A stretch of 60,050 nucleotides of DNA, the filler included, from Asterionella formosa (taxonomy: Eukaryota): NCBI GenBank assembly GCA_002256025.1. It is 8 parts of 8 records of this genome, joined end to end, with 100 filler letters (N's around TTAATTAATTAA, not from the genome) between each part and the next. Parts side by side here need not be neighbours in the genome. Positions count along the whole stretch, not along the records: positions 15,072 to 22,498 come from NKIB01012452.1; 7 more parts are not named here. One strand, 5' to 3'. A program made the translations under genes and the position numbers. Below, one piece after another: positions 1,972-50,129 of this stretch. The stretch's first letter is position 1, and the number at the start of each line of letters is the position of its first letter. The notes under the pieces are model-generated. The model was not told the DNA's origin. It saw only the letters and a program-made list of their open reading frames with translations, and made no database searches.

Positions 1972-2646
1972 TTAAAAGACTCCTGTCTCATCGCGTTGCC
2001 GCTTCATTGCTACTGCCATCCATTCCAACTGGTCCAGCATTTCTGGTAACTGCTTGAGCATCCGGGCTGTAGGCTCAACCGGTGTACCATCTTCTTTGAT
2101 GAGACTAGCTACATCTGGAAGGCCAACCAGTTTGGAAACAGGCAAACATCCAAGTTCATGATTCATAACTTGAATGCACATGGCGGCACGCATACCACCC
2201 CAAGGTCCTGGAGAATATGTGATGATACCAGAAGGCTTGCACTTGTACAAGGAGCCTCCAAAATGTCCCATGATGGATGAAAGGGCAGGAGGCGCAACAT
2301 GGTTGTATTCCGGTGAGATGATAATGAAAGCATCAGCGTTCGCAATGGTTTGCTTCAGTGCTGCAGCTTTTGGTGGAAGTTCTTTAAGGAAGAATGTTGG
2401 AACCGTCAATTCTCCTCGGCTGATTTCGGCGAGAGCTCCACCTTGACCGAAGACTTCCAATGGATCGACCACATAGATTTCGTGCTTGATACTTTCACTG
2501 CCGAGCTTGGCATTGCGGGCTTCAATTGATTGCTTGACCCATTTCAAAACTCGATCTCCAGTTCGACTGTCTCCTCCCCAAGGTGGTTTGCAATCACGAG
2601 CAGACCCCAAAAAGATGACTGTTTTCAAGATCTTAAGCGTCGCCAT
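1972..2646 (-). CDS. NADPH-dependent FMN reductase / azoreductase (flavodoxin-like)
   Basis: [21 protein letters not shown] and [18 protein letters not shown] motifs. First ATG at 2646 (MATLKILK). Confidence 0.88.
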
Positions 2647-3742
2647 TTTGATCCAAAATATCTTTTTTTGAGCACACAATGATACTTCTGTACCGGTATC
2701 TCAAAATGTTGTGTTTATGGATTTGATATGTTTTATCTGCCAGTATTAACTGGTACCTGGTACGTAGTCTACAGGCTGGCATTGTTCCGAGGAAGGACAA
2801 GATCTACCGGTACCTATGTAAGTGTACATTTTTGGAGTTGCTATTACGATTATGTAGTACCGGTACTGTATGTATCTTCGTCGATTCGATTCGAATACTA
2901 ACGTTCTTCGAAGAAGTTCTTTTCTTCATTTTGTGCGTCTGTAAAATATATGCACTGGAGTATATACTTATCATGGACTATGGACAATAATAATTTAGNN
3001 NNNNNNNNNNNNNNNNNNNNNNNNNNNNNNNNNNNNNNNNNNNNNNNNNNNNNNNNNNNNNNNNNNNNNNNNNNNNNNNNNNNNNNNNNNNNNNNNNNNN
3101 NNNNNNNNNNNNNNNNNNNNNNNNNNNNNNNNNNNNNNNNNNNNNNNNNNNNNNNNNNNNNNNNNNNNNNNNNNNNNNNNNNNNNNNNNNNNNNNNNNNN
3201 NNNNNNNNNNNNNNNNNNNNNNNNNNNNNNNNNNNNNNNNNNNNNNNNNNNNNNNNNNNNNNNNNNNNNNNNNNNNNNNNNNNNNNNNNNNNNNNNNNNN
3301 NNNNNNNNNNNNNNNNNNNNNNNNNNNNNNNNNNNNNNNNNNNNNNNNNNNNNNNNNNNNNNNNNNNNNNNNNNNNNNNNNNNNNNNNNNNNNNNNNNNN
3401 NNNNNNNNNNNNNNNNNNNNNNNNNNNNNNNNNNNNNNNNNNNNNNNNNNNNNNNNNNNNNNNNNNNNNNNNNNNNNNNNNNNNNNNNNNNNNNNNNNNN
3501 NNNNNNNNNNNNNNNNNNNNNNNNNNNNNNNNNNNNNNNNNNNNNNNNNNNNNNNNNNNNNNNNNNNNNNNNNNNNNNNNNNNNNNNNNNNNNNNNNNNN
3601 NNNNNNNNNNNNNNNNNNNNNNNNNNNNNNNNNNNNNNNNNNNNNNNNNNNNNNNNNNNNNNNNNNNNNNNNNNNNNNNNNNNNNNNNNNNNNNNGAAGA
3701 CTAATCATAATTTTTCACAGTTCCTGCAAAACCACCATCAAG

Positions 3743-6096
3743 ATGCAACGTTTTGTTGCCACCTCCATCACCCTATTGGTCCTCCAACTGACGGATGCCT
3801 CTCTCTTTGGAAGACCGAGTATCTTGTCCTCGAGTCAACCCCAATTCAATAACTCATGGGGTCGGCTGATATCCAGAGCAAGGTCGCCCGCCGCACTTTC
3901 GTCCATCGAACTGTTGCGAGGAGGTGCCGACGGAGGAAAGATTGAAGGACCCTGCATTGGCATCGATCTTGGAACGACGTACTCGTGTGTCGCTGTTTGG
4001 CGGAACAACAGAGTGGACATTTGCCCCAATGAGCAAGGGAATCGAATTACCCCTTCGTATGTTGCATTCAGCAAAGAGGGCACTCGTCTAGTCGGGGACT
4101 CAGCTAAGAATCAAGCCTCGCAAAACCCTGCTGGAACTGTATTCGATGTCAAGCGATTGATTGGACGCAAATTCAATGACGCGTCTGTTCAGAAAGACAA
4201 GGCTCTGTTCCCTTTCAAGATCGGAAGTGATAAGGCCGGGAAACCAACTGTTGAAATCGAGGGTGCGATCGCGAAAGCGCACTCCAAAAGCGTCTACACT
4301 CCAGAAGAAATCAGTGCCATGATTTTGCGAAAAATGAAGGAAACGGCCGAGGCGTATTTGGGTGTCGAAGTCAAGCACGCAGTCGTGACAGTTCCCGCAT
4401 ATTTCAATGATGCCCAAAGGCAAGCGACCAAGGACGCCGGAACTATTGCTGGACTGAAGATTGAGCGTGTCATCAACGAGCCAACTGCTGCTGCAATTGC
4501 TTATGGCTTGGATAAGCAAGACCGAGAAGAAACAATTTTGGTGTTTGACCTAGGTGGGGGCACCTTCGATGTGACACTTTTGAGCATTGACAACGGTGTC
4601 TTCGAGGTACGAGCCACCTCTGGTGATACTCACTTGGGAGGAGAGGACTTTGATCAGCGTCTGATGGAATGGTGTATCAGCCAGTTTAAGCGCCAATCTG
4701 GTTTCGATGTTACGGAAGATAAGCGTGCGGTTCAAAGGCTGCGAACACAATGTGAGAAGGCCAAGCGCACCCTGTCGACGCAATCATCCGCCAGTATCGA
4801 TTGCGAGGCGCTTGCAAACGGACAGGATTTCAGCACAACGATTTCAAGAGCCAAGTTTGAAGAACTCAACCTTGACCTCTTTAAAAAAACCATGATTCCC
4901 GTTACTCAGGTTTTGAAAGATTCCGGCATGAGCAAGAACGACGTTGATCAAATTATTCTTGTTGGTGGATCTACTCGTATCCCAAAGGTCCAAGCCATGC
5001 TCACTGAGTACTTTGGTGGAAAGGAATTGAACAAAAGCATAAACCCTGATGAAGCTGTGGTAAGTTCAAGATAGTTTGGTTATTATCTGACACTGCTAAT
5101 GAAGAGAACTCGTACGCTTGGCTTCTGATGATTGCTCCTCGGCCGGAAATAGTTAGCTGGAACAAAACCGTTGAGTGATCTTGATGTGAACGCATACACT
5201 TTTACGAAGCATTCTTCGTATTAGAAACATTTTTGTCTTTTAATTCTTTTCCTCACAGTTTTGTGCTCGCTCAACAGGCATACGGTGCAGCTGTTCAAGG
5301 TGGAATTCTCAGTGGTGATGCTGCTGAAGCTACGAAGGATGTGCTTTTGTTAGACGTTGCCCCTTTATCACTTGGAATCGAGACGGCTGGAGGTGTCTTC
5401 ACTGCTCTCGTCAAGCGTGGCACAACCATCCCTGTGAAGAAGTCTCAAATCTTCTCCACTTACGCTGACAACCAACCCGGTGTCAACATCCAAGTATTCG
5501 AGGGAGAGCGTAGCTTGACCAAATCAAATCGATTACTCGGACAATTTGAGTTACAAGGCATTCCTCCTGCACCTCGCGGTGTGCCTCAAATTGAGGTTAG
5601 CTTTGATGTCGATGCTAATGGTATTTTGAGCATTGGAGCACACGACAAAGGAACTGGAAAGTCGCAGACTCTCACTATTACTAGTGAGAAAGGTCGTCTC
5701 TCGGAAGACGAGATCGAGCGAATGGTTCGAGAGGCCGAAGAATTCGCGGAGCAAGACGAGGCTGAAAGGGCTAAGATCCAAGCGCGCAATGAGTTAGAAG
5801 CGTATTTATACAACTTGAAGAATAGCATCACTGACACACTAGTGGATAAGCTAAGCGACGAGGATAAGTCGACTTTGACTACCAGTGTCGAGGAAGCCTT
5901 GGTATGGCTCGAAGACCACCCAGCCGCCGAAAAGATTGAATATGACGAGAAGCAAAAGGAAGTCGAACGGAATGCCAATCCCATTCTCAAGAAAGCTTAC
6001 GAGAGCAGCGGCGCAGGTGACGGTGCCGATGATGATTTTTTGGGCGCAGACCTTGACGGGGTAGGTGACGGCCCCAGTGTAGAAGAGGTCGATTAG
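3743..6096 (+). CDS. HSP70: Hsp70, cytosolic type (EEVD) with a bipartite N-terminal presequence; likely periplastid-compartment Hsp70. Exons 3743-5059 and 5278-6096
   Basis: [27 protein letters not shown] and INPDEAV|AYGAAVQ joined in frame by a GTAAG...CAG intron (5060-5277). Ends GPSVEEVD; hydrophobic signal-like N-terminus. Confidence 0.95.
5099..5180 (+). ncRNA. Candidate intronic box C/D snoRNA (boundaries uncertain)
   Basis: C-like ATGAAGA (5099-5105) and D-like CTGA (5125-5128). ACGCTTGGCT (5114-5123) is complementary to conserved LSU rRNA AGCCAAGCGU as recalled from memory. Confidence 0.35.
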
Positions 6097-10513: not shown

Positions 10514-12274
10514 TTAAAATGAGGGTGGAGCGCCATACAGATTGCTGGAATACGTGGGAGAAGGAGCGCCATAAGACATTGGTGGCGGTGCCCCAAACGT
10601 CATGGGTGGTGGTTGGCCATACGACATCGGAGAAGATCCTCCGTAAGAAGGTATGGGGACAGAAGAATTAAAACCATAGGGATTTGCCATGGGCGAGCAA
10701 TAACCTGAAGGAGGGAGAGGCGGAGGGGCGCCCATCGGTGGTGGAGCCATAGGCATTGAGTTACTGCTTGCGTTGGATGCGTCATCGTTGAATTGGTAGC
10801 CATAGTTGCTTTGTTGTGAGGTGGAAATGGTGAGTGAACGTTGCGCTGCGAAATTTAAATCGTCCATCGTGGGAGGGGGAGCTGCACTATTTGCAATTGC
10901 CAGCATGTCAGACGCGTTCATGGGGGCCCCCACACTTCCATGCGCAGAACCTCCTCCAAATGACCCGGAAAAGCTTTGAGCAGAGGTTTCACGTGACATA
11001 TGGGATGCCGGAGCCATCGCAATAGCCACTGGAAATCCACCCATGCCTTGCGGAGCAACCGATCCAGGAGGTAAGTATTGATGTTGCGACCATGAATCTC
11101 CGCCGGGCACAGATCCTGCACCAACGGAACCAGACCCAAGCCCAAAGGAGCCAGAACCCATGCCAAAAGTATTTCCGTTGGTAAGAGAAGGCTGGGCATT
11201 TGCTTCTCTTGTCGATAAAATAGCGGGCTGCTGCGTCTCAAGCTCCTTCAATCTCCCAGAGGCTTGCAGCTTGTATTGTTCTCCTAACTTCTTCAACTGA
11301 TTCACAACATGGTCCATTTGGCCAAAGCATGTTGCTTCCTCCTTGGAAATGGTCATGTCAAACTGTGCCATTTTGACGAGGCAAGGGTGCAAGTCCTTCC
11401 AACTGCGTTCTGTCAGTTCTTCAATATAGATACACATATCCGTCGCAAACTTATCATATGAAGCCTTGGCCGCGACCAGCTTTTCCTCGTTTCTGGCCAA
11501 CTTATCCTGCGACTTGTTGTCCACCATTTTCCCCTTGGCCAATGCTGAATTGGCAGACGCTCTAAGTGACTCTGCCTTTTTTTGGTAATGATCATAGTCC
11601 CGTCGAAGATCTTCCGCAGTCTTGAGTCCTTTCTCAACACGAGTGGTAATAATACGGTCCCATTCGACAATGTAATTGATGACAAATTGACTATACTTAT
11701 CGGCATAACCTTGTGCCTTGGGTGCTAGAGAGTGATGGACAGAGGCAAAGGAGACAATAGAGTCGCGAGGAGTGTCAGGCGAAGGGAGCTTTCCCGCCGC
11801 ATCCAATAGGGGTGAATTGGTGGTCATAGCGGTGATAACTTCTGCGACCTGAGGAGAGAGGGAGCAAGGACCACGCAAGAAGTGAGCAATGCTGACCGTC
11901 AAGAGCATTTTGAACCACCGCACACGCGCTGTCAGAACGCTGTTGCTTCAACCGCCATCGCACGGCCGCTGCCAAATACAGCCGGACTGCACAACATGTT
12001 TAACAGTGTCGTCCAGTTCACTGACGAGAGCGAGCCTCTTTGCCCTACATACGTGGGAACAATACCAGGCTTGGCACAGACATACCTGAAGTCTCGTCTT
12101 GGAAAGCTGCATCATTGAAGCATGATGATTTTTCAGCGCCGCAATGAGCGTAGCTATCCGCTTCTTGAGAACGTTAAAGCTACTGGTAAGTTGTTCCAGA
12201 TCCGCAGATCGGTTGTGAGATTTGCCTCCGCCCACAGCGTCCTTAAGACGGACTCCGACACGAGACTTCGCCAT
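10514..12274 (-). CDS. BAR-domain protein with Pro/Gly/Ser-rich C-terminal tail. Exons 12274-12086 and 11848-10514
   Basis: GTATG...CTCAG intron (12085-11849) joins TRLQ|VAEV in frame. BAR-like helices (LRRDYDHYQKK, DKLARNEEKL) and a PPPM/YG-rich tail. Confidence 0.75.
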
Positions 12275-13574
12275 TTCAATGTTTGTGCTCCGACGGCTGT
12301 GCGTATAAAATGACACTCGATTATATTTGCTATATAATACTAAACCGGTCGTAGAAATATGGAAGTGAATCTGCAATGCACATACCGGTACGAGTACCAG
12401 TACTGGTACCAGGTACCTTACAGTGCTGCTATTATCTACTGACTAACGGATATACTCGGCGTATGATATCTATAATTCGCTTACCGTGCACAATCGGACC
12501 ATCATCATCAGTGGGAGTATTTGTTGATTTATTCTATATGTACAGGATATGCATATTTTTATGTTATCCACATTGCCGTAGGTAATAAATATCCCGGTAC
12601 CTGGTACCAGGTACCAGGGGTANNNNNNNNNNNNNNNNNNNNNNNNNNNNNNNNNNNNNNNNNNNNNNNNNNNNNNNNNNNNNNNNNNNNNNNNNNNNNN
12701 NNNNNNNNNNNNNNNNNNNNNNNNNNNNNNNNNNNNNNNNNNNNNNNNNNNNNNNNNNNNNNNNNNNNNNNNNNNNNNNNNNNNNNNNNNNNNNNNNNNN
12801 NNNNNNNNNNNNNNNNNNNNNNNNNNNNNNNNNNNNNNNNNNNNNNNNNNNNNNNNNNNNNNNNNNNNNNNNNNNNNNNNNNNNNNNNNNNNNNNNNNNN
12901 NNNNNNNNNNNNNNNNNNNNNNNNNNNNNNNNNNNNNNNNNNNNNNNNNNNNNNNNNNNNNNNNNNNNNNNNNNNNNNNNNNNNNNNNNNNNNNNNNNNN
13001 NNNNNNNNNNNNNNNNNNNNNNNGGTACGTAGAATTAAACATTTGGTAAACGTTTTTCTCTGTGTCCGGCAATGATTGGGTTTGTCGTGATTTGCAATGC
13101 AGTTGTTTATATCGTGATCCGTTTATCCTGTACTAGGAATGAAGCAGTTTCTTGCTTGCTTTAGAGAAGAATGTGTTGCATATACATACAGTACGCTACA
13201 TACCGGTAATCATGTGTACAGGTATTACTGGTAGACTACCTTATTTCTGCACGGCAGCCGGCAAGAAAGCCTACTAAATTAGTGTACTATGATCCAATAA
13301 AGTTGAGAAACAAAAAAAATCGATTCTCTAAACCAAAAAAGCTACATGGCATTCCTGTATGCACCATCGAAAAGGCAAATGACTGTCTATGTAGTGCTGA
13401 TAGGGAGCATTTCTGATTTCAAAATTATGTCGCATCAGATTATCTTTCTTGTTGTAGTTCCTGCCTTTTTTGGTAGCACATTCTTTATTCCATTCCTACC
13501 ATTTTGAACTCTCCACATCTGCTGGTTTAAATTTCCGCTTGAGAATCATTGTTGTTCCAATGTGATTTTTGATT

Positions 13575-13892
13575 GTAGTGCTGGCTGGCTGGAGAATGCG
13601 CATTTGCAGTATTCTTGATGGTTTGCTTTACATAATCTTGTTTGTCGTTATTGTTGTTGGGTAACAAGTGGGTTTGTTCCTCCTTTTCCTGGCTGTAGTG
13701 GTGCTGGCTGGAAAACACGCGTTTGCAGAGTTCTTGACGGTTCTCTTATCATAATCTTATTCATTGTCGTTGTTGTTGTTGTTGTTGTTGTTGTTTAGGG
13801 AATTGGTTTGCTGTTCTGTTGCTTTTTGTAGCGCTGGCTGGACAATGCCTGTTTGTAGCATTCTTGATGGCTCTCTTATTGTAATCTCATTT
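13575..13892. repeat. Three degenerate ~120-130-bp tandem copies with an embedded (GTT)n tract
   Basis: GTAG..GCTGGCTGGA....TTTG..G..TTCTTGA.GG..CATAATCT recurs near 13575, 13695 and 13828. Confidence 0.75.
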
Positions 13893-15106
13893 TTTATTAC
13901 TGTTACGGTAGTAGGGATATTGTTGTATTCTGCTGATGTAATTGTTTAAATTGTATCAACATTGCCATCGATGAAGAAGGGAGTGGCTTTCGACATGGTG
14001 GATTGCTGCCAGAGTACTAGCCATATCCTCGTGAGTAGAACATGTGACTAGAAGTTTGCAATAGAAATTGTTCGCTTAGGAATTGAAATACCAGAAAGGC
14101 CCGGCAGCGCACATTTTATGCGTACTTAGTATTCAGTTTCGGATCACTCTTAATGACTCATTCCATGCCATCCCGACGAGATAGGCTGGCAGTATATATT
14201 TCGACCATTTCCATATTGTATATACAGGTGCTTGCATAAATCCTCCCTGTCATCTGTGTACTTACGTGACGCTAGCAGTCCTACAGGACATACAAATTTG
14301 GTAGCCCGGTTGGTGATCATTTCCATATTATGTACAGGGGCATCCAGCATGATGCCTCACTTTTACATATGTAGTTTTGCATGTAACCAAAATCCTACAG
14401 AATTTATTACTTTGGTGACCTGGTGACTTTTCCATATTCTTCATACAGGTGTCACTAAAATTGAAATGCAGCCTTACTACTAGTGGGTATTAGCTAGCTA
14501 TTATAGTGTTTTACCTGTGTTTCTAACTGGCACCTCCATTTTTATATAGAAATTAACATACCAGAATATACATTCTTCATGATCTATGCAACCATATAGA
14601 TCATACACCGGTAATCAAATTTTTCTGTCAATAATCATTTCAGACCAGAAAGTATGAACTGTTATCAATAAAGTTTGATTCTTAAAAATTTAGTATGTTT
14701 TATAGACCATTCATAAACCCCTATTTCTTTAGACAAGTTTTTCATTGTCAGTGCTGCTACCTGCCGAAAAGACCTGTGCTTCCTTAGTTTCTTAGCATAA
14801 TAGGTGATTCCCCAACCACCTTTCGTGAGAGGTACTAGTCGTCTTAGCCACAGCATTAGTAGAGGAAACTCCAACCGCCTAGGAAGGCGGCATAAGCTGC
14901 TTGTAGGGGGGAAACCCACTATTGCTTGCAAACCAGGCAAGACCGTGCGAGACGGTCAGGAGTGTGGTATTNNNNNNNNNNNNNNNNNNNNNNNNNNNNN
15001 NNNNNNNNNNNNNNNTTAATTAATTAANNNNNNNNNNNNNNNNNNNNNNNNNNNNNNNNNNNNNNNNNNNNAAGAAATTTACTTAGGTCCATTATAAGGG
15101 AAATCT

Positions 15107-15547: not shown

Positions 15548-18126
15548 ATGAGTGGTGACACGACAGTCCTCCCCGCCACAGCCGTTGCAGTCGTTGTTTC
15601 GCGTGGCAAGCACACGTCGTTGGAAATCAGCGTCGCTGCTCAAATTCCGGTGAAGCGAAAGCATGTCAACGACACCGTTCAATTCGTTCTGGAACACTAC
15701 GAGTTCATGGAAGACAGGCGCTACTTGAGTCATCTGGATGCATTGCTGGGGAGGCTGGCTCCATTGAGTTGCATCCATTTGGGATGCACGGAAACAGCAG
15801 AGGTTAGTTTTGCGCAACAGTACCCCAAACAACATCAAACTCACATTCACTCACATATCTCATCGATCAATCTTCAACCTCAAAATTCACAAAGCCCTCC
15901 ATCAAAGCGAATGTTGCTGCTGATCGCAAAGCTCAGCAAGTTGCGGATCTTTTGGAGCGGATCGCAAACTCCATTTCTACCCGATCGGATCTAGCTGATA
16001 CCACAACGATGGACTATTGCGACCTCACCAACATTTACAGATCCCTTCCTACTATACCTGACTCGCTTCCCCACATGCTCCAACACTTACTCTCGGAGCA
16101 ATCATTTCTGGCATATCGAGGGGCTGTCGTGTCAGAACTTTCCAAAAAGGCAATGGAGCTTTTGTTGCACGGGCAAGGACTTGTCGGCAAGGCAGACACA
16201 ACTCTCCAGACATGTCAGTGGTCCCAGGGGGTCTTGTCTTCTCATTTGGTGTTGGATCGTACCGCCGCGGAAACGATTCATCTACTTCCACCCCCTCATG
16301 TGGGGGCAGCCACCGTCATGGGAGGACACAAGTCCAATAACTCCTTGTACGGAATTCTCAATCAGTGCAAAACACCCATGGGATCGAGAGAATTAATGAT
16401 TTGGTTACGACAACCATTGGTGGATTTGAATGCCATCCTCCAACGCCAGACTGCGGTTGGCGCGTTAGTAAACAACTCACTAGGAAGAGACCGCTTGAGA
16501 GATGAAGGACTGACGGGGATGACTGGTGTTGACCTAGACAAACTTGCGGCGCGATTGTCACAATACAAGGTGACGAATAGTGCTTGCAATGGCCATGCTT
16601 TGGAAGTATTGTACAAAATGTATACACTCGCCACAAAGCAAATTCCAATCCTTTTGGACGCCTTGATTGATGCGACCAACAATGACGATTCGCCAATTTT
16701 GTTGGAGGCGGCTTCTGGATTGGAGCGTTGTCTCGCGGAATTGGTGGGACCCACGCAGCTGACGGGGCTTGCGGAAACCATTATTGATTTGGATATGGCA
16801 CCTAGAGAGTACATGGTGAAAGCATCTTTTGATGACCGACTAGGAGAATTGTCGGAAGAATTGAACCAAACCATTCATGACATGGAGGACTGCCATGCCA
16901 ACATGACCAGGACATGGCAATCAGTGTCGGGACAGACTACTCAAGTACGATTAGAAGAGAGTGATAATGGACTGGAATTTCGTTTACCAGACGCTAATAG
17001 CATCAAGATTTTGCAGTCGTCTTTGGGGAATCAAGTATCGGTGACTAAAGTACTGAAGAATGGAACCTACTTTGTCACGAAGGAGTTGTCTCAGTTGGGG
17101 GAACAGAAACGAGCTTTGATGGATGAATATGAATCGGTTCAGCAAGTGATAGTCGGACAATGCATGGAATCGGCGACTACGTATGCTCCTGTTTTGGAAC
17201 GCCTTTCGGCATTAGTGAGTGAATTGGATATTTTGGCTAGTTTAGCCCACGTGGCGGCCTATAATTCACATGGGTACTGCAAACCAGAAATGACTGATTC
17301 AGAGGATGATGGTTTCGGCATTGAGTTGAAGCAAGCTCGTCACCCATGTGTGGAATTGCAAGAAGGTGTCGAATTTATCCCCAATGATATTTCCCTTGTC
17401 TTTGGTGAGTCTTCATTTTTACTAGTCACTGGACCAAACATGGGAGGAAAATCCACCTATATACGTTCATTGGGTGCAATTGTTACCCTGGCTCAGATTG
17501 GGTCATATGTACCATGCCAGTCGGCTAAAATTAATATTGTCCACCATATTTTGGCTCGTGTGGGTGCTGGTGATGCCCAAGACCGTGGCATTTCAACGTT
17601 CATGGCCGAGATGCTTGAGTCGTCTGCCATTCTCAACAAGGCGACCAAGAGATCTCTCATCATCATCGATGAGCTGGGCCGTGGCACATCCACATATGAT
17701 GGATATGGGTTAGCATCTGCCATTTCCGATTACATTGTCCAACGTGTTGGTTGCATGTCTGTTTTTGCCACTCATTTTCACGAACTCACGGCCATGGAAC
17801 AAGAGCACGCACAAGTCAAGAACTGTCACGTGTCCGCGACCACCACAGAAGCAGGATTGTCATTTTTATACCATGTTAAGGACGGTCCCTGCCTCGAATC
17901 CTTTGGGATTCAAGTGGCGGAAATGGCTCAGGTTCCACAGGCTGTGATTGTCGATGCCAAGCGTCGTGCCAAGGAGTTGGAAAAGTTTGAGTACTGCAAG
18001 AAGAGCAAAGCATCCCTGTCCACACAAGAATCCTTTCGTGCCAAGTTCAAGGCGATCCCTTTTGATACTTTGTCTGTGGCAGAGAAACGCCGTGCACTTC
18101 AAGAACTGGTTGGCGAAGTGCAATGA
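15548..18126 (+). CDS. MSH2: DNA mismatch repair protein MSH2. Exon 1 15548-15802; exon 2 from 15895 (or 15937) to 18126
   Basis: SLYGILNQCKTPMGSR, ARHPCVELQ, TGPNMGGKSTYIR, STFMAEMLE, IIIDELGRGTSTYDG, FATHFHELT and SFGIQVAEMA. GTTAGT donor at 15803 with in-frame AG acceptors. Confidence 0.93.
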
Positions 18127-19033
18127 TTTGATATTCTTGACGAAACTTTTGAAAAGAAGGAAAAGAAAGTCTCCGTAGTGAGCAGCAACAAATTGGCGGC
18201 AGAGAGTGAGATTTGCTCCATTAAGACTGCATTGCTTCAAGAAAAGGACCTTTTCATGTTCTTTAGGATATGACAAGAGTGTTTTATTATTCTTGGAGTT
18301 TCATATTAAAAAATGATCATATCATAGATGACTCACATCACTTCTTCACTTCATAAAATCATGGCGATGTTTTGAGGTCTCATTTTGGGCCGTTTCCTTT
18401 ATTTCATGTTGTCATTTATGGACGTACCCCATCATTCGCTCATTACACATGAGCTTGCTTGAGATCAGATCTCCGGATCTAGTCCCAATAGAAATTTTCT
18501 TATTCCATTTATTGTCTTTTTTCACAAATTCACGACTGTTGTTGGCACAAATGGCGACAATAGTTGGCGCCATTTATTTATATCGGCCAATTTTGAGTGA
18601 TCAATAACCAATAATCAGCCATACATAAAAGCAGATAACACAGGATATCAATCGCAGTACCGGTATTATATCATATTTATACCGGAATATCTATATAAAT
18701 GTATACCTTAAAACACAGACAAGAGAGTACCAGGTACCAGAACATCGTGCTGGCATCATCAGCCACAGACAAGATCTTTCAACTCTTCATAATTAATTTG
18801 TATTATCCATTACCGGTAGTGTATACGTATATAAACTTCGGTATTTTCTTCACCATATCTTTTTCGGTATTTTTCTCATGGTCACGCTTGCTCTTGAACT
18901 TGTGCTGTTGTGCCTTGGACCTGATTTTGCCGCGTTTTCTTCTGTCCTGGTCAACAGTAGAACTTTCCCGAAACGATGGCAGCCTGTTTACTAATGAATC
19001 ACATGCTGCTAACAGCAACAATGTGATGATAAT

Positions 19034-19043
19034 GTCGTCATCG

Positions 19044-19078
<35 letters not shown>

Positions 19079-19103
19079 GTCATCGTCATCGTCATCGTCA
19101 TCA
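19034..19103. repeat. (TCA/TCG)n microsatellite
   Basis: About 23 trinucleotide units are directly visible. Confidence 0.95.
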
Positions 19104-19360
19104 GGAGACAAGAGGAATGCTGACATGGTCAGTGACTGATGACAATTGCAATCACTTCAATGACAATTATTGTATATGATACATCTTTAAAGTAATCAAA
19201 AGTGGAGGCCTGGCCAACGAGAGGATGCATCGCTAGGAACATTTAACGGTTAATAATTAGTACAGTTAAATTTATTTTCAATGTCTTATCTAAAATAATT
19301 TTAGTATGAAAAAGTCAAAGGATCGAAAAAAAAATTGGCACAAACAATAAATTTGGTTTC

Positions 19361-21904
19361 ATGAATCATTTCTTATATTTGGGTAGACTTATTATGACAG
19401 CCAGAATGAAAATGTGGAGGACAGCTGCTGCCAGCATTACCAACCGACCGAGGTCGACTCATCGTCGTTGGGTATCGGCCCTGACCGATGGCGGTGACTA
19501 CTTCAAAACGAGTGATGCGGGAAATACCCCGCTTGTGATGGGATGCGTCTGTTACGATCCTGCCGTCGATGACATTTGGGCTGGCATTAAGACGTACCTG
19601 CGCCACCAATGTGGCGTACCATTCGACTACGTGCTATTTACCAACTACGAAGCCCAAGTCAGGTCCCTCGTCAATGGCCACATTGACTTGGCTTGGAATG
19701 GTCCGATCGCCCACGTTATGACTGAAGAGCTTGCTCATCGTACTCCCGGAACCACTGTCGTATCTCTGGGCATGAGGGATGTCGACCGGGACTTTCAGTC
19801 CACCATTGTTGTGAAACGGAGTGCCAAGATTCATGTGCTGGAAGATTTGCAGAATCGCCACATAATGACGGGAGCCAGTGACTCGCCACAGGCACATCTG
19901 CTGCCACTCTATCACTTGCGCAAATCTACCATCACCCCCGGTCAGATCACGGCGTTTGATCTGGACCTTGGCAAACATGGCGATACTGCTGCTGGGGAAA
20001 TCAAAGCAATTGAGGTCCTCTCCACGACGGAACAAGGTGATGCGGCGATTGTTTCCAAACTAATGTGGGATCGAGCGGTTCAGGGACTGATTCCCACATT
20101 GGACCCTGTTAGGATTCAGAATAATTGCGAGGAATTGGTAAATGCCAACCTTCCAACTTTTGACCATTGTCAATTTGATGCCATTCTAACTACAGAAAAT
20201 GAATCGAAGCTAAATGATTTTAGTGAAGCCTTGCTTTCCATGGATTGGGAAATCCCCGAACAACGTCGTTTAATGAAACTCGAGGGGATCCAAAAGAAAT
20301 GGGAAGGCCCGAGACAGACAGGATACGATATTGTCAGAAGTGCCATGGGTTTGCGATTGGACCAACACCACCCCGCCATGAATTTTCAAAAGCGTTGCAT
20401 GTCAAGCGCTCATCAACGTCCACCAAAACGAGTGGCAGTTGTTGGGGCTGGAGTGGCGGGCCTTCAGGCCATTCGTGCTCTCAAATCTCATGGTTTCGAT
20501 GTGACTGCCTTTGAAGGGGCAAGCACTGTCGGTGGACTATGGAAGGCCAATTATGCCAACTTTGGAGTGCAGGTTCCAAAGCAACTGTATGAATTTCAAG
20601 ATTTCCCAATGACGGATGTTGCTTGGGGAGATTATGCATCTGGACAACAAGTTCAGGCCTATATTGAAAAATATTCAGATGCATATGGTTTACGTGATGC
20701 TATCAAGTTCAATACACATGTGACTGGTGTACAACAAATGGAGGATGGAACATGGAAGGTACAAATCGAAACCGAACAAGGCACTCAGAATCAAGACTTT
20801 GATTACCTTGTCATGGCCACGGGGATATACTCGGTTATGAACAAGATCATCCCCGTCAAACCTGGCCAGGATAATTTCTCGGGAAAGATTGTTCATAGTT
20901 CCGACTTTCGGGATGCAACGGTGGCCAAGGACAAGCGCGTGGTGGTGGTTGGCGGTGGTAAAAGTGCCATTGATTGTGCTATTGAAGCATCACGGGCGGG
21001 TGCGTCTTCTGTCACACTTCTGCAGCGAACGTCTCATTGGCCCACCCCACGCAAGATTGCTGGAATCATTCCGTTCCAATATATCTTCTTGAGTCGACTT
21101 GGAACTGCTCTTGTAAGTGCACACCGCGGAACTTTTCCAGGTGGAAGTGGAAAGGCTGTGAATACCTTTCGAAATAGCATCATTGGCCCTGCATTGGTGA
21201 AACCTATTTTTAGGATGGTGGAAGAACTATTTGCCTTTCAGTTTGCCCTACGTGGTGATTTGAGACCCAAAACAGACGTTGTTTCTAGTTTTTATGATGT
21301 TGGCATTGTACTTAACTCAGATCTTCCTGATATGAGAAAGGCGGGAAAAGTCAAGATGCAAATGGGCGAGATTGACAAGTATGAAGGCGATAGCACGCTC
21401 CGATTAAAAGACAACTCGACTCTTGAGGCTGACCTGATCGTTTCTGCAACAGGCTTTGCACAGGACTACTCCATCTTTTCTGACCCCACTACGCGTGAGG
21501 ATCTTGACCTTCAAACCGATGGAATGTACTTGTACCGCTACATTCTTCCCGAAAAGGTGAAAAACCTTGCGTTTATAGGTCATATGGCAGCGATTTCCAA
21601 TATTTCAACATATGGGTTACAGGCCGAGTGGTTGGCGCGTAATCTGACTGGCAGTCTCGTCTCTGGTGGCACGAACGAAACAACTGCACATTTGAAAGAT
21701 GAAATCGAGGCAAGAAAGCGCTGGGCCCGATCTTGGATGCCTGAAAATGCCAATCGCGGTATGCTTGTGCTCTTGCATCAAATACATTATCATGATCAAC
21801 TCCTTAGGGACATGGGCTTGAATCCACATCGAAAGGGGAATCCAATATCAGAATACCTTATGCCGTACGAACCGGCCGATTACGATGGAATCATTGGCAA
21901 ATGA
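19361..21904 (+). CDS. Fusion of a PhnD-like (type 2 periplasmic-binding fold) domain and a class B flavin-containing monooxygenase; probable mitochondrial presequence
   Basis: Intronless 847-aa ORF; the true start may be a later Met (19394-19412). N-half has FDYVLFTNYEAQVRSLVNGHIDLAWNGP, GASDSPQAHLLP and FDHCQF. C-half has GAGVAG, GGLW, FSGKIVHSSDF (FxGxxxHxxxF), GGGKSA and ATGF. Confidence 0.88.
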   Translation: MNHFLYLGRLIMTARMKMWRTAAASITNRPRSTHRRWVSALTDGGDYFKTSDAGNTPLVMGCVCYDPAVDDIWAGIKTYLRHQCGVPFDYVLFTNYEAQVRSLVNGHIDLAWNGPIAHVMTEELAHRTPGTTVVSLGMRDVDRDFQSTIVVKRSAKIHVLEDLQNRHIMTGASDSPQAHLLPLYHLRKSTITPGQITAFDLDLGKHGDTAAGEIKAIEVLSTTEQGDAAIVSKLMWDRAVQGLIPTLDPVRIQNNCEELVNANLPTFDHCQFDAILTTENESKLNDFSEALLSMDWEIPEQRRLMKLEGIQKKWEGPRQTGYDIVRSAMGLRLDQHHPAMNFQKRCMSSAHQRPPKRVAVVGAGVAGLQAIRALKSHGFDVTAFEGASTVGGLWKANYANFGVQVPKQLYEFQDFPMTDVAWGDYASGQQVQAYIEKYSDAYGLRDAIKFNTHVTGVQQMEDGTWKVQIETEQGTQNQDFDYLVMATGIYSVMNKIIPVKPGQDNFSGKIVHSSDFRDATVAKDKRVVVVGGGKSAIDCAIEASRAGASSVTLLQRTSHWPTPRKIAGIIPFQYIFLSRLGTALVSAHRGTFPGGSGKAVNTFRNSIIGPALVKPIFRMVEELFAFQFALRGDLRPKTDVVSSFYDVGIVLNSDLPDMRKAGKVKMQMGEIDKYEGDSTLRLKDNSTLEADLIVSATGFAQDYSIFSDPTTREDLDLQTDGMYLYRYILPEKVKNLAFIGHMAAISNISTYGLQAEWLARNLTGSLVSGGTNETTAHLKDEIEARKRWARSWMPENANRGMLVLLHQIHYHDQLLRDMGLNPHRKGNPISEYLMPYEPADYDGIIGK

Positions 21905-23429
21905 GTCCAAAGTGAGTAGCGATGTTTTGCCTGTCCTTTTATTGCACTGTGTAACAACCACTTGATGTTTTACCATACCTAGTGACTTAATAGTTGGTTT
22001 ATGCAGAGTAGCTCACTCTCATTGTATAAAGCCTTCATTCTGTGACAAGCTTCTGAGGGAAAAAGGAGGGAGGTACCAACGTCAATGCTAGGCACAACTT
22101 CTTCGATATATCTTTCTTTAAGCCAGATCACAAAAAGCAAATTGCCTGGGAAATAATAGAAATATCAGTGGACTTGCAAAAAAGTCTTGTGCAAGATTCA
22201 GATAGTAAAGAGCGAACACCGGTACCGGTGAGGTACTCCGGTATTTATAATGTACCAGGTACCCTGTAAATCACAGGCATCCATGCAGTGGTTATTATTA
22301 GTATCTGCAAGTTGCTTTAAATTTGGTATACATAAAGATTTAGCTATCTTTACCCCAGATTAAAGGTGTTAGTTTGAGCAAAATGACCGCAACTTGCAGG
22401 TACTGGTACTTCAAAATGACTGTCCTAATTATTATTAGGAGCGGCTCAAATAATATATTCACCGTTGTAAATGCCAGATACAATTTATGCCGGTATATNN
22501 NNNNNNNNNNNNNNNNNNNNNNNNNNNNNNNNNNNNNNNNNNTTAATTAATTAANNNNNNNNNNNNNNNNNNNNNNNNNNNNNNNNNNNNNNNNNNNNAA
22601 AGAAGGAAAGATTGCTTTTGAAGAGCATGGAAACCCAAACAGTTCTTCATTGCGGATGAAGACTCTATTTCTACAGAGTCACAGTTCCATTCAGTGTCGT
22701 ATTTTGCTCCTCATTCTCCTGAAATTGCTGATAATGAAGAAGAACTCAGTGATTCTCATTCATTTGATGAACAAAATCATACGATGAATGAAAATACCGG
22801 CGGAAATGTGGGAGACATCACTTCTGAAGTAGAAATGGTTGAAAAATTGCAAAACCAAGAAATATGTCTCACTATTCGTCCAGGACATCAAGATGAACAT
22901 CATGAAAGCAGAGAAACTATTGCATTTCTAAAAGAAAAGCAACATATTCAAGAAAAAGTCCGAGCTAGATCAAGACCTCGAATTCAAGAAGATCAATGAA
23001 GACAGAGACGTGATGATGCTGGCTAAGGCAGTACATGCACTGAGTCGGGAACAAAGTTTGAAGAAATAAATTGAATCTTTTTCCAAATCATACATGGAAA
23101 AAAAGAATTTCTCTGTAAAAAAATCGAGAACAATCCCGAAGGCAACTATCCTACTTATTTGAAGAGTCAGCATGTGAAATGTGTAGAGTTATTATAACAA
23201 AGCAAACTTCATTTTCCTTGAGTTAGCCGAAAACGCGTGGACAACTAAAATTGTGGAAAGATTTGTACACACGTACCCCACAAGAAATATGCAATTACAT
23301 CTAAGCCGCGAAATACGCCACGTTTCGAAATTTCATTTACATAGGAGTGCTAATGATGGGGTACTTGACATGAATTAATGCCACTCTTCCCGTAAAAAGG
23401 GTTACTTTTAACGGCTTCATGTGAAGTTC

Positions 23430-48800: not shown

Positions 48801-49456
48801 CATTTTCAAAAATGGCGAGATTTGATCTTTGTTGTCTGGCGATGTCTAACGATAACGTCCTTTTAAATAGCACGTCAAGTGTGCTTCTATGTTTTCTGGA
48901 GCCCTGCATGTCTTCGCCAAACAGTCCGCGATCCTCTACTCTGCCCACCATATGAAATACCCATATCAATTTAAAGAACAAGTTGTAATTTGCTTCAAAA
49001 AGGTGGATGATGCAGAGACGATGGATTTTTGGATCTCCTTTGTCTTTTTCTAACATTACTGATGTTGCTTGTTGCCATCTACTGGGAGAGAATCCGTTCC
49101 TCACCGGGATTTGATAATCATCCTTGAGTACCCTATCAGTAATTCAGTGTCTTGTAAAGCGGCTTGCTTTTTTATGTCCCAGATGTCTACCAGCTACTGG
49201 AGGTCGGATGTAGAGGTCGATTCTTTCCATCCTTTGATACCTTTCTTGAAATCCGCTATCGATCTTTCTGTATTCAGCTGTTTGATACCTTTGAGTTCTG
49301 TTGGTATTGCCATGGAGGCAACTAGTTCTTTGACGCCCGGAAAGCACATCTCATCCACATTGTGGAAAAGCATGCCATCCAGTATCTTGTCTGCTGCTTC
49401 TGTCAGGCCGTTGAATCCTAAAAGAACCTTCATGGGTCCATGTCCAAACAACATCT
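45900..49456 (-). mobile_element. 5'-truncated degenerate non-LTR retrotransposon (Ambal-like LINE with RT, RNase H and CCHC)
   Basis: RT: RWQQATSVMLEKDKGDPKIHRLCIIHLFEANYN, GTGQGSRASP and AFVDD. RNase H: SSTRAELFG, WTDS, NADIV. C-terminal CVHC...EHMHTC. Several frameshifts; 3' boundary approximate. Confidence 0.9.
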
Positions 49457-49505
49457 AAGACGCCGTTTACCGCACTTTTTCGAATTTATGTCTAAAGTGA
49501 CGTAT

Positions 49506-49582
49506 TTATGCTACTTTTTTAAAATATTATGTTACTTTTCTAAAATATTATGTTACTTTTTTGAAATGTTATGCTACGTTTT
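49506..49582. repeat. 21-bp minisatellite, ~3.7 copies
   Basis: TTATGYTACTTTTYTRAAATR units at 49506, 49527, 49548 and 49569. Confidence 0.85.
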
Positions 49583-50129
49583 CCCCAATTTATTCGGGTT
49601 AAACAAAAAATTATTTCACTTATCGAATAATTATGTGATCACACCAATAATTATGTGTGTTCGTAACAATATATGTTGACCAACTAGCCATCGCAACAGT
49701 TTAAAAGCGAAATTATGCTGCTCTGCCGCAATATTATGCTGCTTTCACCATAGAATGAACGAAAGAGTCGCCAATTCCGATTCACTTATTATTTTTTCCG
49801 CTCCGACATATTTCTTTGATCTGAACTGGCAAAGAATGACACATGCAAGAGGAAGATTCACACAGTAGAATTCAGCACACGTAGTAGTTGATGTTGTAGA
49901 CACATTATTAAGTCATTGTTGATTGTAGAGATTACAATAGTAGCCTGCCAGATTGGAAATAAAGCACCGTTGGTACTCGTTGAGCATCGTTTAGCATTGC
50001 ATGTCTCCGTAGTGAGTCAAAATTGAGATGTGCCGCAATGGCCTTCTCCGTTTCGGAGCCGCTACAAATAGTCTACAGCGATAACTCTAGCAATTTCAAT
50101 ATAGAAAAAGAAGGAAAGGATGAGCAGCT

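What the first reader, a model, noticed from the sequence alone, without database searches (positions are those of the whole stretch)
19361..21904. Bacterial-type PhnD-like binding protein fused to a flavin monooxygenase
Seen: one uninterrupted ORF joins a substrate-binding-fold domain (~19530-20350) to a complete FMO (~20426-21904). From memory, the N-domain motifs (YDP....IW.G, DYVLF.NYE.QV, AWN.P, LGKHGD..GE) resemble a bacterial subfamily annotated as phosphate/phosphonate-binding that lacks signal peptides and sits beside acyl-CoA dehydrogenase-like genes rather than ABC permeases. I do not know this architecture as characterised. Inference: a horizontally acquired ligand-capture domain coupled to N/S/P oxygenation in an organelle, possibly a new catabolic route.
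Basis: partly seen in the sequence, partly recalled or inferred. Interest (0 to 1): 0.8.

Follow-up and report, generated by a model that had tools for sequence, protein, structure and literature searches.

The report
Binding-fold domain fused to flavin monooxygenase
A diatom-like alga makes one expressed protein that joins a bacterial-type "binding protein" domain to an oxygen-adding flavin enzyme; the same fusion occurs in many protist groups, its target molecule is unknown, and its domain linker looks like a second mitochondrial import signal.

Summary
Window 19361-21904 (+) is one open frame of 847 codons. It has an arginine-rich N-terminal extension, a PhnD-fold domain of the Rv1680 type (aa 57-327), a 29-residue linker and a complete class B flavin monooxygenase (aa 357-847). 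RNA contigs from three libraries cross the domain junction without a gap.

The fusion is not peculiar to this genome. 69 of the 120 listed homologues carry both Pfam domains, in diatoms, dinoflagellates, a cryptophyte and Sphaeroforma. Trees of the two halves show the same groupings, so the fusion is old.

In bacteria the binding-fold protein has no signal peptide. In 68 of 80 loci it lies directly after an acyl-CoA-dehydrogenase-like flavoprotein, and in 55 of 80 before a ferritin-like protein. It is almost never near an FMO or an ABC transporter. The phosphonate-binding Ser-Thr-Ser loop reads Ser-Pro-Gln, yet 33 positions are conserved between bacteria and eukaryotes.

The linker has presequence composition. 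It carries an R-x-[FYLMC]-[STNG]-[STAV] motif (mostly R-x-F/Y-S-S/T) in 54 of 56 fused proteins.

Best reading: a mitochondrial flavoenzyme system for an unknown, non-phosphonate small molecule, possibly cut into two chains after import. The function is uncharacterised, and eight literature searches found no description.

The parts
19361..21904 (+). Whole open reading frame, 847 codons plus stop, with no intron.
   Evidence: RNA contigs are colinear with it and show no indels.
19394..19528 (+). Probable true start region (M12 19394, M16 19406, M18 19412) and an N-terminal extension that looks like a mitochondrial presequence (MKMWRTAAASITNRPRSTHRRWVSAL...).
   Evidence: RNA contigs start at 19389-19394. 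The orthologue P0002 starts at MWR. Model residues 1-37 (ORF aa 16-52) have pLDDT below 50. The N-terminal extensions of the 56 fused proteins are 15% R+K and 4.7% D+E, against 9.9% and 11.3% for the whole proteins.
19529..20341 (+). Rv1680-type PhnD-fold (type II periplasmic-binding-protein fold) domain, aa 57-327.
   Evidence: NF049985 E 9.8e-55. PF12974. AlphaFold model pLDDT 96.8, pTM 0.92. Foldseek hits to PhnD1, PtxB, HtxB, ArrX and AioX with E down to 5e-21 and TM 0.6-0.7.
19772..19792 (+). MRDVDRD motif (aa 138-144). R139, D140 and D142 are at least 90% conserved in both bacteria and eukaryotes.
19880..19891 (+). DSPQ loop (aa 174-177), in the place of the PhnD S-S-T-S oxyanion loop.
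   Evidence: HMMER alignments to 7s6g, 5lq5, 5jvb and 5o2j. PhnD1 ligand residues come from PMC10284923 passages.
19970..19984 (+). GKHGD loop (aa 204-208). H206, D208 and the following E213 are at least 90% conserved in both the bacterial and the eukaryotic group.
20162..20170 (+). D-H-C (aa 268-270). It aligns with D203 and the capping Y204 of PhnD1.
20342..20428 (+). Interdomain linker, aa 328-356, with presequence-like composition. R345-C-M-S-S349 (20393-20407) is the local form of the conserved linker motif, which in most homologues reads R-x-F/Y-S-S/T.
   Evidence: The linkers of the 56 fused proteins are 14% R+K, 2.3% D+E and 35% S+T+A. The motif regex R.[FYLMC][STNG][STAV] matches in 54 of 56. 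The Arg is invariant in A4. Only ORF aa 344-352 have pLDDT below 50.
20429..21901 (+). Complete class B flavin-containing monooxygenase domain, aa 357-847. It holds the FAD motif GAGVAG (20444-20461), the FMO motif FSGKIVHSSDF (20876-20908), the NADPH motif GGGKSA (20951-20968) and ATGF (21446-21457).
   Evidence: PF00743. Motifs. Foldseek on the full-length model: DiatB 8z17/8z12 with target TM 0.84-0.86, ancestral mammalian FMOs 0.73-0.77, Tmm/mFMO about 0.67.
21905..22142 (+). 3' untranslated region covered by RNA contigs.
   Evidence: X2 record 13 ends at 22115 and X3 record 19 at 22142.

Best explanation
SHOWN. This is an expressed nuclear gene of a diatom-like alga. It encodes a precursor with four parts: an arginine-rich N-terminal extension, a signal-less Rv1680-type PhnD-fold domain, a presequence-like linker, and a complete NADPH/FAD class B monooxygenase. 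The architecture is conserved across many protist lineages. The binding-fold domain shares 33 near-invariant positions with bacterial proteins that almost always sit directly after an ACAD-like flavoprotein.

INFERRED. (1) The protein is imported into mitochondria. (2) The binding-fold module is a dedicated partner of a flavoprotein oxidoreductase: ACAD-type plus a ferritin-like, radical-SAM or MetE-like third protein in bacteria, and an FMO in eukaryotes. It holds, or acts on, the same small ligand in both. That ligand is not a simple phosphonate or phosphite, because the Ser-Thr-Ser oxyanion loop is rebuilt and acidic, His and Cys residues line the mapped pocket positions. (3) The FMO half uses NADPH and O2, through a C4a-hydroperoxyflavin, to add oxygen to a nitrogen or sulfur atom of that ligand or its product. 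(4) The linker is a retained presequence with an R-3-type processing motif, so the precursor may be cut into two chains after import.
For: One frame. RNA contigs from three polyA/cDNA libraries of two studies cross the junction: X1 at 19448-20630 with 0 mismatches, X2 at 19394-20608, X3 at 19389-20608. No indels were seen. The flanking ORFs are eukaryotic in type: HSP70, MutS, MFS, ankyrin.

Conservation of the fusion: 69 of the 120 listed homologues carry both PF12974 and PF00743, including transcript-derived ones. The two domain trees show the same groupings.

Bacterial context, for 80 loci out of 554 relatives found: ACAD-like gene directly upstream in 68 (74 loci had room for it), ferritin-like 'c4' downstream in 55 (72 had room), both in 50, an FMO in 1, ABC ATPase ORFs in 8. 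The ACAD-like gene matches NF049984 Rv1679_FadE16 at E 9e-115.

Fusions of the binding-fold domain with ACAD parts occur in 8 of 29 long bacterial proteins, with c4 parts in 7 of 29, and with a radical-SAM domain in P0243.

Pocket remodelling. 33 positions are at least 90% identical in both the bacterial (77) and eukaryotic (89) groups. Presequence-like N-terminus and linker. The stand-alone FMO paralogues P0031 and P0033 carry the linker-type motif KRSFSTT / SSFSTT at the end of their own N-terminal extensions.
Against: No ligand, cofactor, activity or localisation was measured, and no targeting predictor was available. pTM of the full-length model is only 0.62, so the mutual arrangement of the two domains is not defined. 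Bacterial relatives of the FMO half are not next to binding-fold genes (0 of 4 loci). Bacterial binding-fold genes are next to an FMO in only 1 of 80 loci. The functional link of the two halves therefore rests on the eukaryotic fusion alone. Stand-alone FMO copies are nested inside the fused clade (10 of 66 rows) and stand-alone binding-fold proteins occur in eukaryotes, so the two parts can work unfused. The strict FMO motif F.G...H...[YF] is found in only 36 of 56 fused proteins. Many of the bacterial 'fusion' proteins are singletons with partial domains and may be gene-calling artefacts.
Confidence: 0.55

Rival explanations
1. Polyprotein. The fused precursor exists only to co-import two proteins in equal amounts. 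The mitochondrial processing peptidase cuts at the internal presequence-like linker, and the free binding-fold protein and free FMO then act as separate proteins, alone or as a non-covalent pair. This is compatible with the best explanation except on whether the mature enzyme is one chain.
For: Linker composition equals that of the N-terminal extensions. The linker motif is present in 54 of 56 proteins and its Arg is invariant in 56 of 56. The motif is duplicated in several linkers (P0013, P0038, P0064, P0049, P0061). Only this stretch is disordered between two confident domains. A similar motif closes the N-terminal extension of the stand-alone FMO paralogues P0031 and P0033. The yeast Arg5,6 precursor, cut inside mitochondria, is a precedent (recalled, from no call).
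Against: No protein-level data. R-x-x-S is also a kinase-site pattern. The linker is short in the window protein (29 aa, of which 9 are disordered). The 'A-x-N-F' stretch before the motif is modelled with confidence, so part of the linker is structural.
Confidence: 0.3
2. The binding-fold domain is itself an enzyme, possibly metal-dependent, that carries out the step before or after the FMO. The gene would then be an ordinary bifunctional fusion of two pathway enzymes, not a capture module plus enzyme.
For: Conservation is unusually strict for a binder: 13 invariant and 28 near-invariant positions in 111 sequences averaging about 40% identity. The conserved residues include His, Asp, Glu and Cys (H206, D208, E213, H269, C270) at positions that map to the PhnD ligand pocket. 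Some homologues also match PF09084 NMT1, a family that includes the THI5 enzyme (the THI5 point is recalled).
Against: There is no known catalytic precedent within the PhnD branch. The fold search returns only binding and sensor proteins. No metal or activity data exist.
Confidence: 0.2
3. The binding-fold domain is an allosteric sensor that switches the FMO on or off in response to a metabolite that is not the FMO substrate.
For: PhnD-fold relatives AioX and ArrX are sensors rather than transport components (titles).
Against: In bacteria the domain travels with enzymes, not with regulators or signalling domains. Its pocket is conserved across partners of quite different kinds.
Confidence: 0.1
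4. It is a phosphonate/phosphite-binding domain feeding phosphorus oxidation, or a transport relic (the literal reading of the Pfam name).
For: PF12974 match. The nearest solved structures are PhnD1 and PtxB. A structure-based table in PMC8562490 calls Rv1680 a 'putative phosphonate transporter component' (passage seen).
Against: The S124-T125-S126 loop of PhnD1 corresponds to S-P-Q, the water-binding S123 to Asp, and the capping Y204 to His. No signal peptide is seen in bacterial members. An ABC ATPase lies nearby in only 8 of 80 loci.
Confidence: 0.04
5. Artefact: two neighbouring genes, or an assembly chimera, read as one.
For: RNA contigs break near 20608-20630. One X1 contig shows a 99-base skip (20630 to 20730, ends AT..TG, side 30).
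Against: Three RNA contigs bridge the domain junction (20341-20429). The breaks lie inside the FMO half, where a close paralogue shares sequence. 69 independent homologues have the same architecture.
Confidence: 0.01

Closest known systems
Rv1680 family SBP-like protein (NCBIfam NF049985), within the bacterial cassette ACAD-like (NF049984, Rv1679/FadE16 type) - SBP-like - third enzyme
   Same: Full-length homology (E 9.8e-55). 33 positions are conserved at 90% or more in both groups. The protein is always partnered with a flavoprotein. It is uncharacterised.
   Different: The score of 186 bits is below NCBI's cut-off of 400. Here the domain is fused to a class B FMO instead of following an ACAD-like gene. 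It carries a eukaryotic N-terminal extension. No ferritin-like, radical-SAM or MetE-like third partner is seen in the window.
Periplasmic phosphonate/phosphite/hypophosphite-binding proteins PhnD, PhnD1, PtxB, HtxB, and the sensors AioX and ArrX (PF12974; PDB 5lq5, 7s6g, 5o2j, 3p7i, 6esk, 6xl2)
   Same: Same fold (Foldseek E down to 5e-21, TM 0.6-0.7). The pocket Tyr (Y96 = PhnD1 Y44), one Ser (S175 = S124) and the Asp (D268 = D203) are retained.
   Different: There is no signal peptide and no ABC partner. The Ser-Thr-Ser loop reads Ser-Pro-Gln and is preceded by an invariant Asp. The capping Tyr is His, followed by Cys. A loop GKHGDxxxGE is inserted.
Class B flavin-containing monooxygenases (PF00743): bacterial Tmm/mFMO, mammalian FMO1-5, insect PNO, garlic S-oxygenase, DiatB (PDB 8z12)
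   Same: Two dinucleotide-binding motifs, the FMO-identifying motif and the whole fold (target TM 0.84-0.86 to DiatB, 0.73-0.77 to ancestral mammalian FMOs).
   Different: Identity to any solved FMO is only 18-26%. The domain has its own clade, with about 37% identity to unnamed bacterial 500-aa proteins. It has an N-terminal binding-fold domain, which none of the solved FMOs listed is described as having, by their titles.
Mitochondrial polyprotein precursor Arg5,6 of yeast and Neurospora (recalled; no call)
   Same: Two enzymes are made as one precursor with an internal presequence-like segment that is cleaved in the matrix. This is the proposed analogy for the R-x-F/Y-S-S/T linker.
   Different: Cleavage is unproven here. 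The proteins are unrelated.

Membership tests
Class B flavin-containing monooxygenase (FMO, PF00743) | N-terminal FAD-binding GxGxxG | tested here: met
   GAGVAG at aa 362-367. Present in 56 of 56 fused homologues.
Class B flavin-containing monooxygenase (FMO, PF00743) | FMO-identifying motif FxGxxxHxxx(Y/F) | tested here: met
   FSGKIVHSSDF at aa 506-516. The strict pattern is found in 36 of 56 fused homologues.
Class B flavin-containing monooxygenase (FMO, PF00743) | Second (NADPH) dinucleotide-binding motif | tested here: met
   GGGKSA at aa 531-536. Found in 56 of 56 with the pattern G[GSNC].K[SG][AG].
Class B flavin-containing monooxygenase (FMO, PF00743) | Pfam score above the gathering cut-off, and overall fold | tested here: met
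   154.9 bits against a cut-off of 22. Foldseek target TM 0.73-0.86 to solved FMOs.
Class B flavin-containing monooxygenase (FMO, PF00743) | NADPH- and O2-dependent oxygenation of a soft nucleophile | not testable with these tools
   Needs an enzyme assay.
Baeyer-Villiger monooxygenase (type I BVMO) | Fingerprint FxGxxxHxxxW(P/D) | tested here: not met
   No match in the window protein, and 0 of 56 fused homologues.
Rv1680 family SBP-like protein (NF049985) | Score at or above NCBI's curated cut-off (400 bits) | tested here: not met
   186.1 bits, E 9.8e-55, model positions 2-257 of 268. It is a homologue, not a member by NCBI's threshold.
Rv1680 family SBP-like protein (NF049985) | Shared family-specific residues (MRDxD, DSPQ, GKHGD..E, DHC, LEG..W) | tested here: met
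   33 positions are at least 90% identical in both the 77 bacterial and the 89 eukaryote-type rows. 13 columns are invariant in 111 sequences.
Rv1680 family SBP-like protein (NF049985) | Gene directly downstream of an Rv1679-type ACAD-like gene | tested here: not met
   True in 68 of 80 bacterial loci. In the window the upstream gene is MutS-like, and no ACAD-like or c4-like sequence is present. An FMO is fused instead.
PhnD-type periplasmic phosph(on)ate-binding protein (PF12974) | Type II binding-protein fold of the PhnD/PtxB branch | tested here: met
   80.2 bits against a cut-off of 27. Foldseek E 5e-21 to PhnD1.
PhnD-type periplasmic phosph(on)ate-binding protein (PF12974) | Oxyanion-binding Ser-Thr-Ser loop and capping Tyr (PhnD1 S124, T125, S126, Y204; PMC10284923) | tested here: not met
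   These align to S175, P176, Q177 and H269. The alignment of PhnD1 H156 is ambiguous: it falls on E213 or H206.
PhnD-type periplasmic phosph(on)ate-binding protein (PF12974) | Export signal and ABC permease/ATPase partners | tested here: not met
   Bacterial relatives start 2-7 residues before strand 1. An ABC ATPase ORF lies within 5 kb in 8 of 80 loci. None of the 13 large window ORFs scanned is an ABC component.
Mitochondrial matrix precursor / internally processed polyprotein | N-terminal presequence (basic, hydroxylated, few acidic residues) with an R-2/R-3 processing motif | tested here: inconclusive
   Composition and an R-x-[FWL]-[SA]-like motif are seen. No targeting predictor or localisation data were available.
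Mitochondrial matrix precursor / internally processed polyprotein | Cleavage at the internal presequence-like segment | not testable with these tools
   Only sequence signs: motif in 54 of 56, invariant Arg, disorder at ORF aa 344-352.

The most novel reading that the evidence does not exclude
The gene encodes a mitochondrial polyprotein. After import, the conserved internal presequence (R-x-F/Y-S-S/T) is cut, releasing a cytoplasmic-type PhnD-fold protein and an FMO. Together these form the eukaryotic, NADPH/O2-driven version of the widespread but uncharacterised bacterial cassette of the Rv1679-Rv1681 type: ACAD-like flavoprotein, binding-fold protein, and a diiron, radical-SAM or MetE-like enzyme. 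The system would act on a still unknown nitrogen- or sulfur-containing metabolite common to soil bacteria and to aquatic protists.
Probability: 0.25. Interest if true: 0.8.

Novelty: new variant of a known kind. Interest (0 to 1): 0.62.

Why it matters
Diatoms, dinoflagellates (including coral symbionts) and cryptophytes all keep this two-part enzyme, and it is transcribed in natural lake communities, yet databases name it only 'dimethylaniline monooxygenase' or 'phosphonate-binding protein'. The fusion ties an orphan, highly conserved bacterial protein family, which includes a family named after a gene of M. tuberculosis, to oxygenating flavoenzymes. That gives a concrete, testable handle on the function of both. 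It also warns that 'phnD' hits in eukaryotic and bacterial (meta)genomes of this subfamily should not be counted as phosphonate uptake. If the linker is a working internal import/processing signal, it would be a clear and phylogenetically broad case of a mitochondrial polyprotein in protists.

Tried and rejected
- Complex prediction of the FMO half with the binding-fold half returned 'no answer' (score 0.00, controls not run). It is no evidence either way.
- The window's own genome is not held. I therefore could not test whether the same organism also has ACAD-like or ferritin-like partners, or where the stand-alone FMO paralogue lies. Within the window there is none.
- Bacterial relatives of the FMO half: 5 of 182 genomes of one class had a full-length match. 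Four loci were fetched (L088-L091) and show no binding-fold, ACAD-like or c4 neighbour. That is too few, and too distant (31-35% identity), to say what these FMOs do. I did not annotate their neighbours further.
- Five genomes holding the bacterial cassette had only partial FMO matches (2 of 5, E about 1e-26, N-terminal part only).
- Sequence search of c4 against solved structures gave nothing (best E 0.058). The ACAD-like protein hits ordinary short-chain acyl-CoA dehydrogenases only.
- Atlas look-ups give leads only. c4 is nearest to 'ferritin-like' clusters (AurF 17%, DUF455 65%, TusA 42% of members). For the binding-fold domain, only generic binding-protein clusters scored, at 0.86 or less.
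- Literature searches: searches found no paper on the fusion, on Rv1680 or fadE16 function, or on DiatB (that search returned unrelated 'DiatBarcode' hits). Subscription journals are not covered.
- Earlier findings by sequence of the window protein: none. By several word sets: none.
- An H-x-D...H iron triad idea for GKHGD plus H269 was considered. It cannot be tested without coordinates, and the His may simply be the ancestral PhnD ligand His.
- Habitat: only the runs X1, X2, X3 and X7 were laid.
Full report
OBSERVATION. The frame 19361-21904 (+) is open for 847 codons. Pfam finds PF12974 (Phosphonate-bd, aa 70-254, E 2e-22) and PF00743 (FMO-like, aa 356-584, E 3.5e-45). NCBIfam places aa 57-327 on nearly the whole model of NF049985, 'Rv1680 family SBP-like protein' (E 9.8e-55; 186 bits, below the curated 400).

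IS IT ONE REAL GENE?
- The surrounding large ORFs are eukaryotic in type: HSP70, aldo-keto reductase, MFS, MutS domains III and V, ankyrin, GH10. This is a nuclear gene, not bacterial contamination.
- Twenty public runs hold all or part of the stretch, 18 of them on record as RNA.
- I laid four runs from three studies. Contigs X1 19448-20630 (0 mismatches), X2 19394-20608 and X3 19389-20608 run without a gap from the binding-fold domain across the linker into the FMO domain. No indels were reported. 3' contigs end at 22115-22142.
- The contigs fragment at about 20579-20630. There the summed depth jumps about tenfold and a loose end appears.
- A stand-alone FMO paralogue (P0020, P0028, P0030) is 82-92% identical to the FMO half, and its C-terminal part is identical by eye. 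It is not in the window. It is the likely cause of the fragmentation.
- Contigs cannot prove a single full-length mRNA. They do exclude a gene boundary or intron at the domain junction.
- The RNA 5' ends, and the orthologue P0002 that begins at the Met equivalent to M18, suggest the real start is M12, M16 or M18 rather than 19361.

THE N-DOMAIN.
- With 111 homologues the domain folds at pLDDT 96.8 and pTM 0.92.
- Foldseek returns PhnD1, PtxB, HtxB, ArrX, AioX and E. coli PhnD (E 5e-21 to 1e-12, TM 0.6-0.7).
- The ligand residues of Synechococcus PhnD1 are Y44, S124-T125-S126, H156, D203 and Y204 (passages of PMC10284923).
- In the HMMER alignments these correspond as follows. Y44 = Y96 (kept). 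S124 = S175 (kept). T125 = P176 and S126 = Q177 (changed). D203 = D268 (kept). Y204 = H269 (changed), followed by C270. The water-binding S123 = D174. PhnD1 H156 falls on E213 or H206, depending on the alignment.
- The pocket positions are therefore all occupied by conserved residues, but of different chemistry. A simple phosphorus oxyanion is an unlikely ligand.
- 33 positions are at least 90% identical in both 77 bacterial and 89 eukaryote-type sequences. This argues that bacteria and eukaryotes handle the same ligand or reaction.

THE FMO DOMAIN.
- It has GAGVAG, FSGKIVHSSDF, GGGKSA and ATGF, and no BVMO fingerprint.
- The full-length model (pLDDT 88.4) matches DiatB (target TM 0.84-0.86, 26% identity), ancestral mammalian FMOs (0.73-0.77) and Tmm/mFMO (about 0.67).
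- It is a complete class B FMO of a clade without a solved or, as far as I could find, studied member.

DISTRIBUTION AND HISTORY.
- Of 120 listed homologues, 69 have both Pfam domains.
- These include Nitzschia inconspicua, Seminavis robusta, Skeletonema menzelii, Cyclotella cryptica, Durusdinium trenchii, Symbiodinium natans ('FMO1'), Hemiselmis (an MMETSP transcript) and Sphaeroforma arctica.
- In the binding-fold tree (166 rows, quick LG+G4) a 99* branch separates 77 bacterial rows from 89 eukaryote-type rows. The fused forms lie in a 71-row subclade (support 94). The remaining eukaryote-type groups, outside that subclade, are stand-alone proteins such as Diacronema lutheri P0171.
- In the FMO tree (93 rows) a 99* branch separates 27 stand-alone rows, which I take to be bacterial (only P0085 is named, as a Kiloniellales MAG), from 66 eukaryotic rows. 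Ten stand-alone FMOs are nested among the 56 fused ones.
- The same groupings recur in both trees, so the halves have evolved together since an old fusion.
- No bacterial donor can be named, and the trees are unrooted. 'Horizontally acquired' therefore stays open.

BACTERIAL CONTEXT.
- A scan of one genome per species found 554 relatives, and 80 loci were kept.
- An ACAD-like gene (NF049984 Rv1679_FadE16, E 9e-115) lies directly upstream on the same strand in 68 of 80 loci (74 had room).
- A roughly 417-aa protein without a Pfam family ('c4'; ferritin-like by the Atlas lead) lies downstream in 55 of 80 (72 had room). Both are present in 50.
- Where c4 is missing, the downstream gene is MetE-like in at least 6 loci and radical-SAM in one.
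- A class B FMO is nearby in 1 of 80 loci and an ABC ATPase in 8 of 80.
- Bacterial members begin a few residues before strand 1, so they have no export signal.
- Among 29 longer bacterial proteins with this domain, 8 also contain ACAD parts and 7 contain c4 parts. P0236 (19 member sequences) is a full binding-fold + TusA-like + c4 protein. P0243 joins the domain to a radical-SAM domain. Many of these long proteins are singletons and may be gene-calling artefacts.
- Two earlier notes of this scan (e1-1380361, e1-1376541) describe the same three-gene cassette. They propose that the diiron protein is the oxygen-using counterpart of the radical-SAM enzyme Rv1681. My calls reproduce the cassette and the existence of both kinds of third partner, but not that specific equivalence.

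TARGETING AND THE LINKER.
- The N-terminal extensions of 56 fused proteins (median 46.5 aa) are 15% R+K, 4.7% D+E and 33% S+T+A. The whole proteins are 9.9%, 11.3% and 22%.
- The window's extension is disordered in the model. It has no hydrophobic signal-peptide core, so a mitochondrial rather than plastid address is the better guess. This rests on my inspection; no predictor was run.
- The interdomain linkers (median 42 aa) have the same composition: 14%, 2.3% and 35%.
- The linkers carry R-x-[FYLMC]-[STNG]-[STAV], mostly R-x-F/Y-S-S/T, in 54 of 56 proteins. The motif is sometimes duplicated. Its Arg is invariant.
- In the window protein, only ORF aa 344-352 (K-R-C-M-S-S-A-H-Q) lose model confidence between two well-folded domains.
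- The stand-alone FMO paralogues P0031 and P0033 end their own N-terminal extensions with KRSFSTT and SSFSTT just before the FAD motif.
- This pattern is what I recall as the R-3 type mitochondrial processing motif, and yeast Arg5,6 is a recalled precedent for an internally cleaved matrix precursor. Neither comes from a call.

MECHANISM.
- I commit to the following. A mitochondrial system in which the Rv1680-type module binds, or transforms, a small non-phosphonate metabolite. The FMO then oxygenates a nitrogen or sulfur centre using NADPH and O2 (confidence 0.55).
- The mature form may be one chain or two (cleavage about 0.3).
- The steps shown are the gene, its expression, the folds, the motifs, the conservation and the gene linkages.
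- The steps inferred are the location, the coupling of the two halves, the ligand class and the cleavage.

NOVELTY. The proteins are already in public databases under automatic names. The kind of enzyme (class B FMO) and the fold (PhnD) are known. What is new is a conserved architecture and a family context that nobody appears to have described, plus the presequence-like linker. I file it as a new variant of a known kind.

Noticed in passing
window 20579-20630 and 20630-20730; proteins P0020, P0028, P0030: A stand-alone FMO paralogue (534-553 aa) has its own N-terminal extension (MLRRVVSIKIRRTTTTHRRWVSS...) that resembles the fused protein's extension (..THRRWVSAL). The C-terminal ~300 aa of P0020 look identical to the window protein by eye. 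RNA depth is about tenfold higher over 20579-20630, with a loose end there. One X1 contig skips 99 bases (ends AT..TG). This is probably cross-assembly with the paralogue, or gene conversion, but it is not resolved.
   Followed up: partly
P0031, P0033: Other stand-alone FMOs, nested in the fused clade, carry the linker-type motif (KRSFSTT / SSFSTT) at the end of a different N-terminal extension. The binding-fold domain thus seems to have been lost at least twice, by different routes.
   Followed up: partly
P0027 in the trees: The copy from Sphaeroforma arctica (an ichthyosporean, on a 114-kb contig) sits inside the clade that holds the window protein and the Nitzschia (diatom) sequence in both domain trees (support 80-89). 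This hints at eukaryote-to-eukaryote transfer.
   Followed up: no
P0071 (706 aa, TRINITY transcript): Here the binding-fold domain lies at residues 431-705, after FMO sequence. This is either a reversed order or a read-through of tandem gene copies.
   Followed up: no
L035, L036, L045, L050, L060, L061; L059; P0243: In bacterial loci without the ferritin-like third gene, the gene after the binding-fold gene is a small MetE-like protein (PF01717) or a radical-SAM protein. The third partner is interchangeable, while the ACAD-like plus binding-fold core stays.
   Followed up: partly
window 18699-19139: A long serine/aspartate codon repeat lies just upstream of the gene (poly-Ser on +, poly-Asp on -). 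The read-laying tool skipped 19000-19109 as a repeat.
   Followed up: no
window 15952-18126: A MutS-family ORF (domains III and V, MSH2-like) without the N-terminal mismatch-binding domains in this frame. Either upstream exons exist or the gene is truncated.
   Followed up: no
window 47860-49056 (-): ORF with a weak reverse-transcriptase match (PF00078, E 7.6e-6, below the cut-off). Probably a retroelement remnant, in a stretch with strong AT skew (46001-50000).
   Followed up: no
window 56880-58811 (+) and 58923-59993 (-): A 643-aa ORF with two SnoaL-like/NTF2 stretches lies next to a glycoside hydrolase family 10 (xylanase-type) ORF. Both are bacterial-looking families in a eukaryotic context.
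   Followed up: no
window 2001-4000 and 12001-14000: GC drops to 0.30-0.33, against about 0.42-0.48 elsewhere.
   Followed up: no
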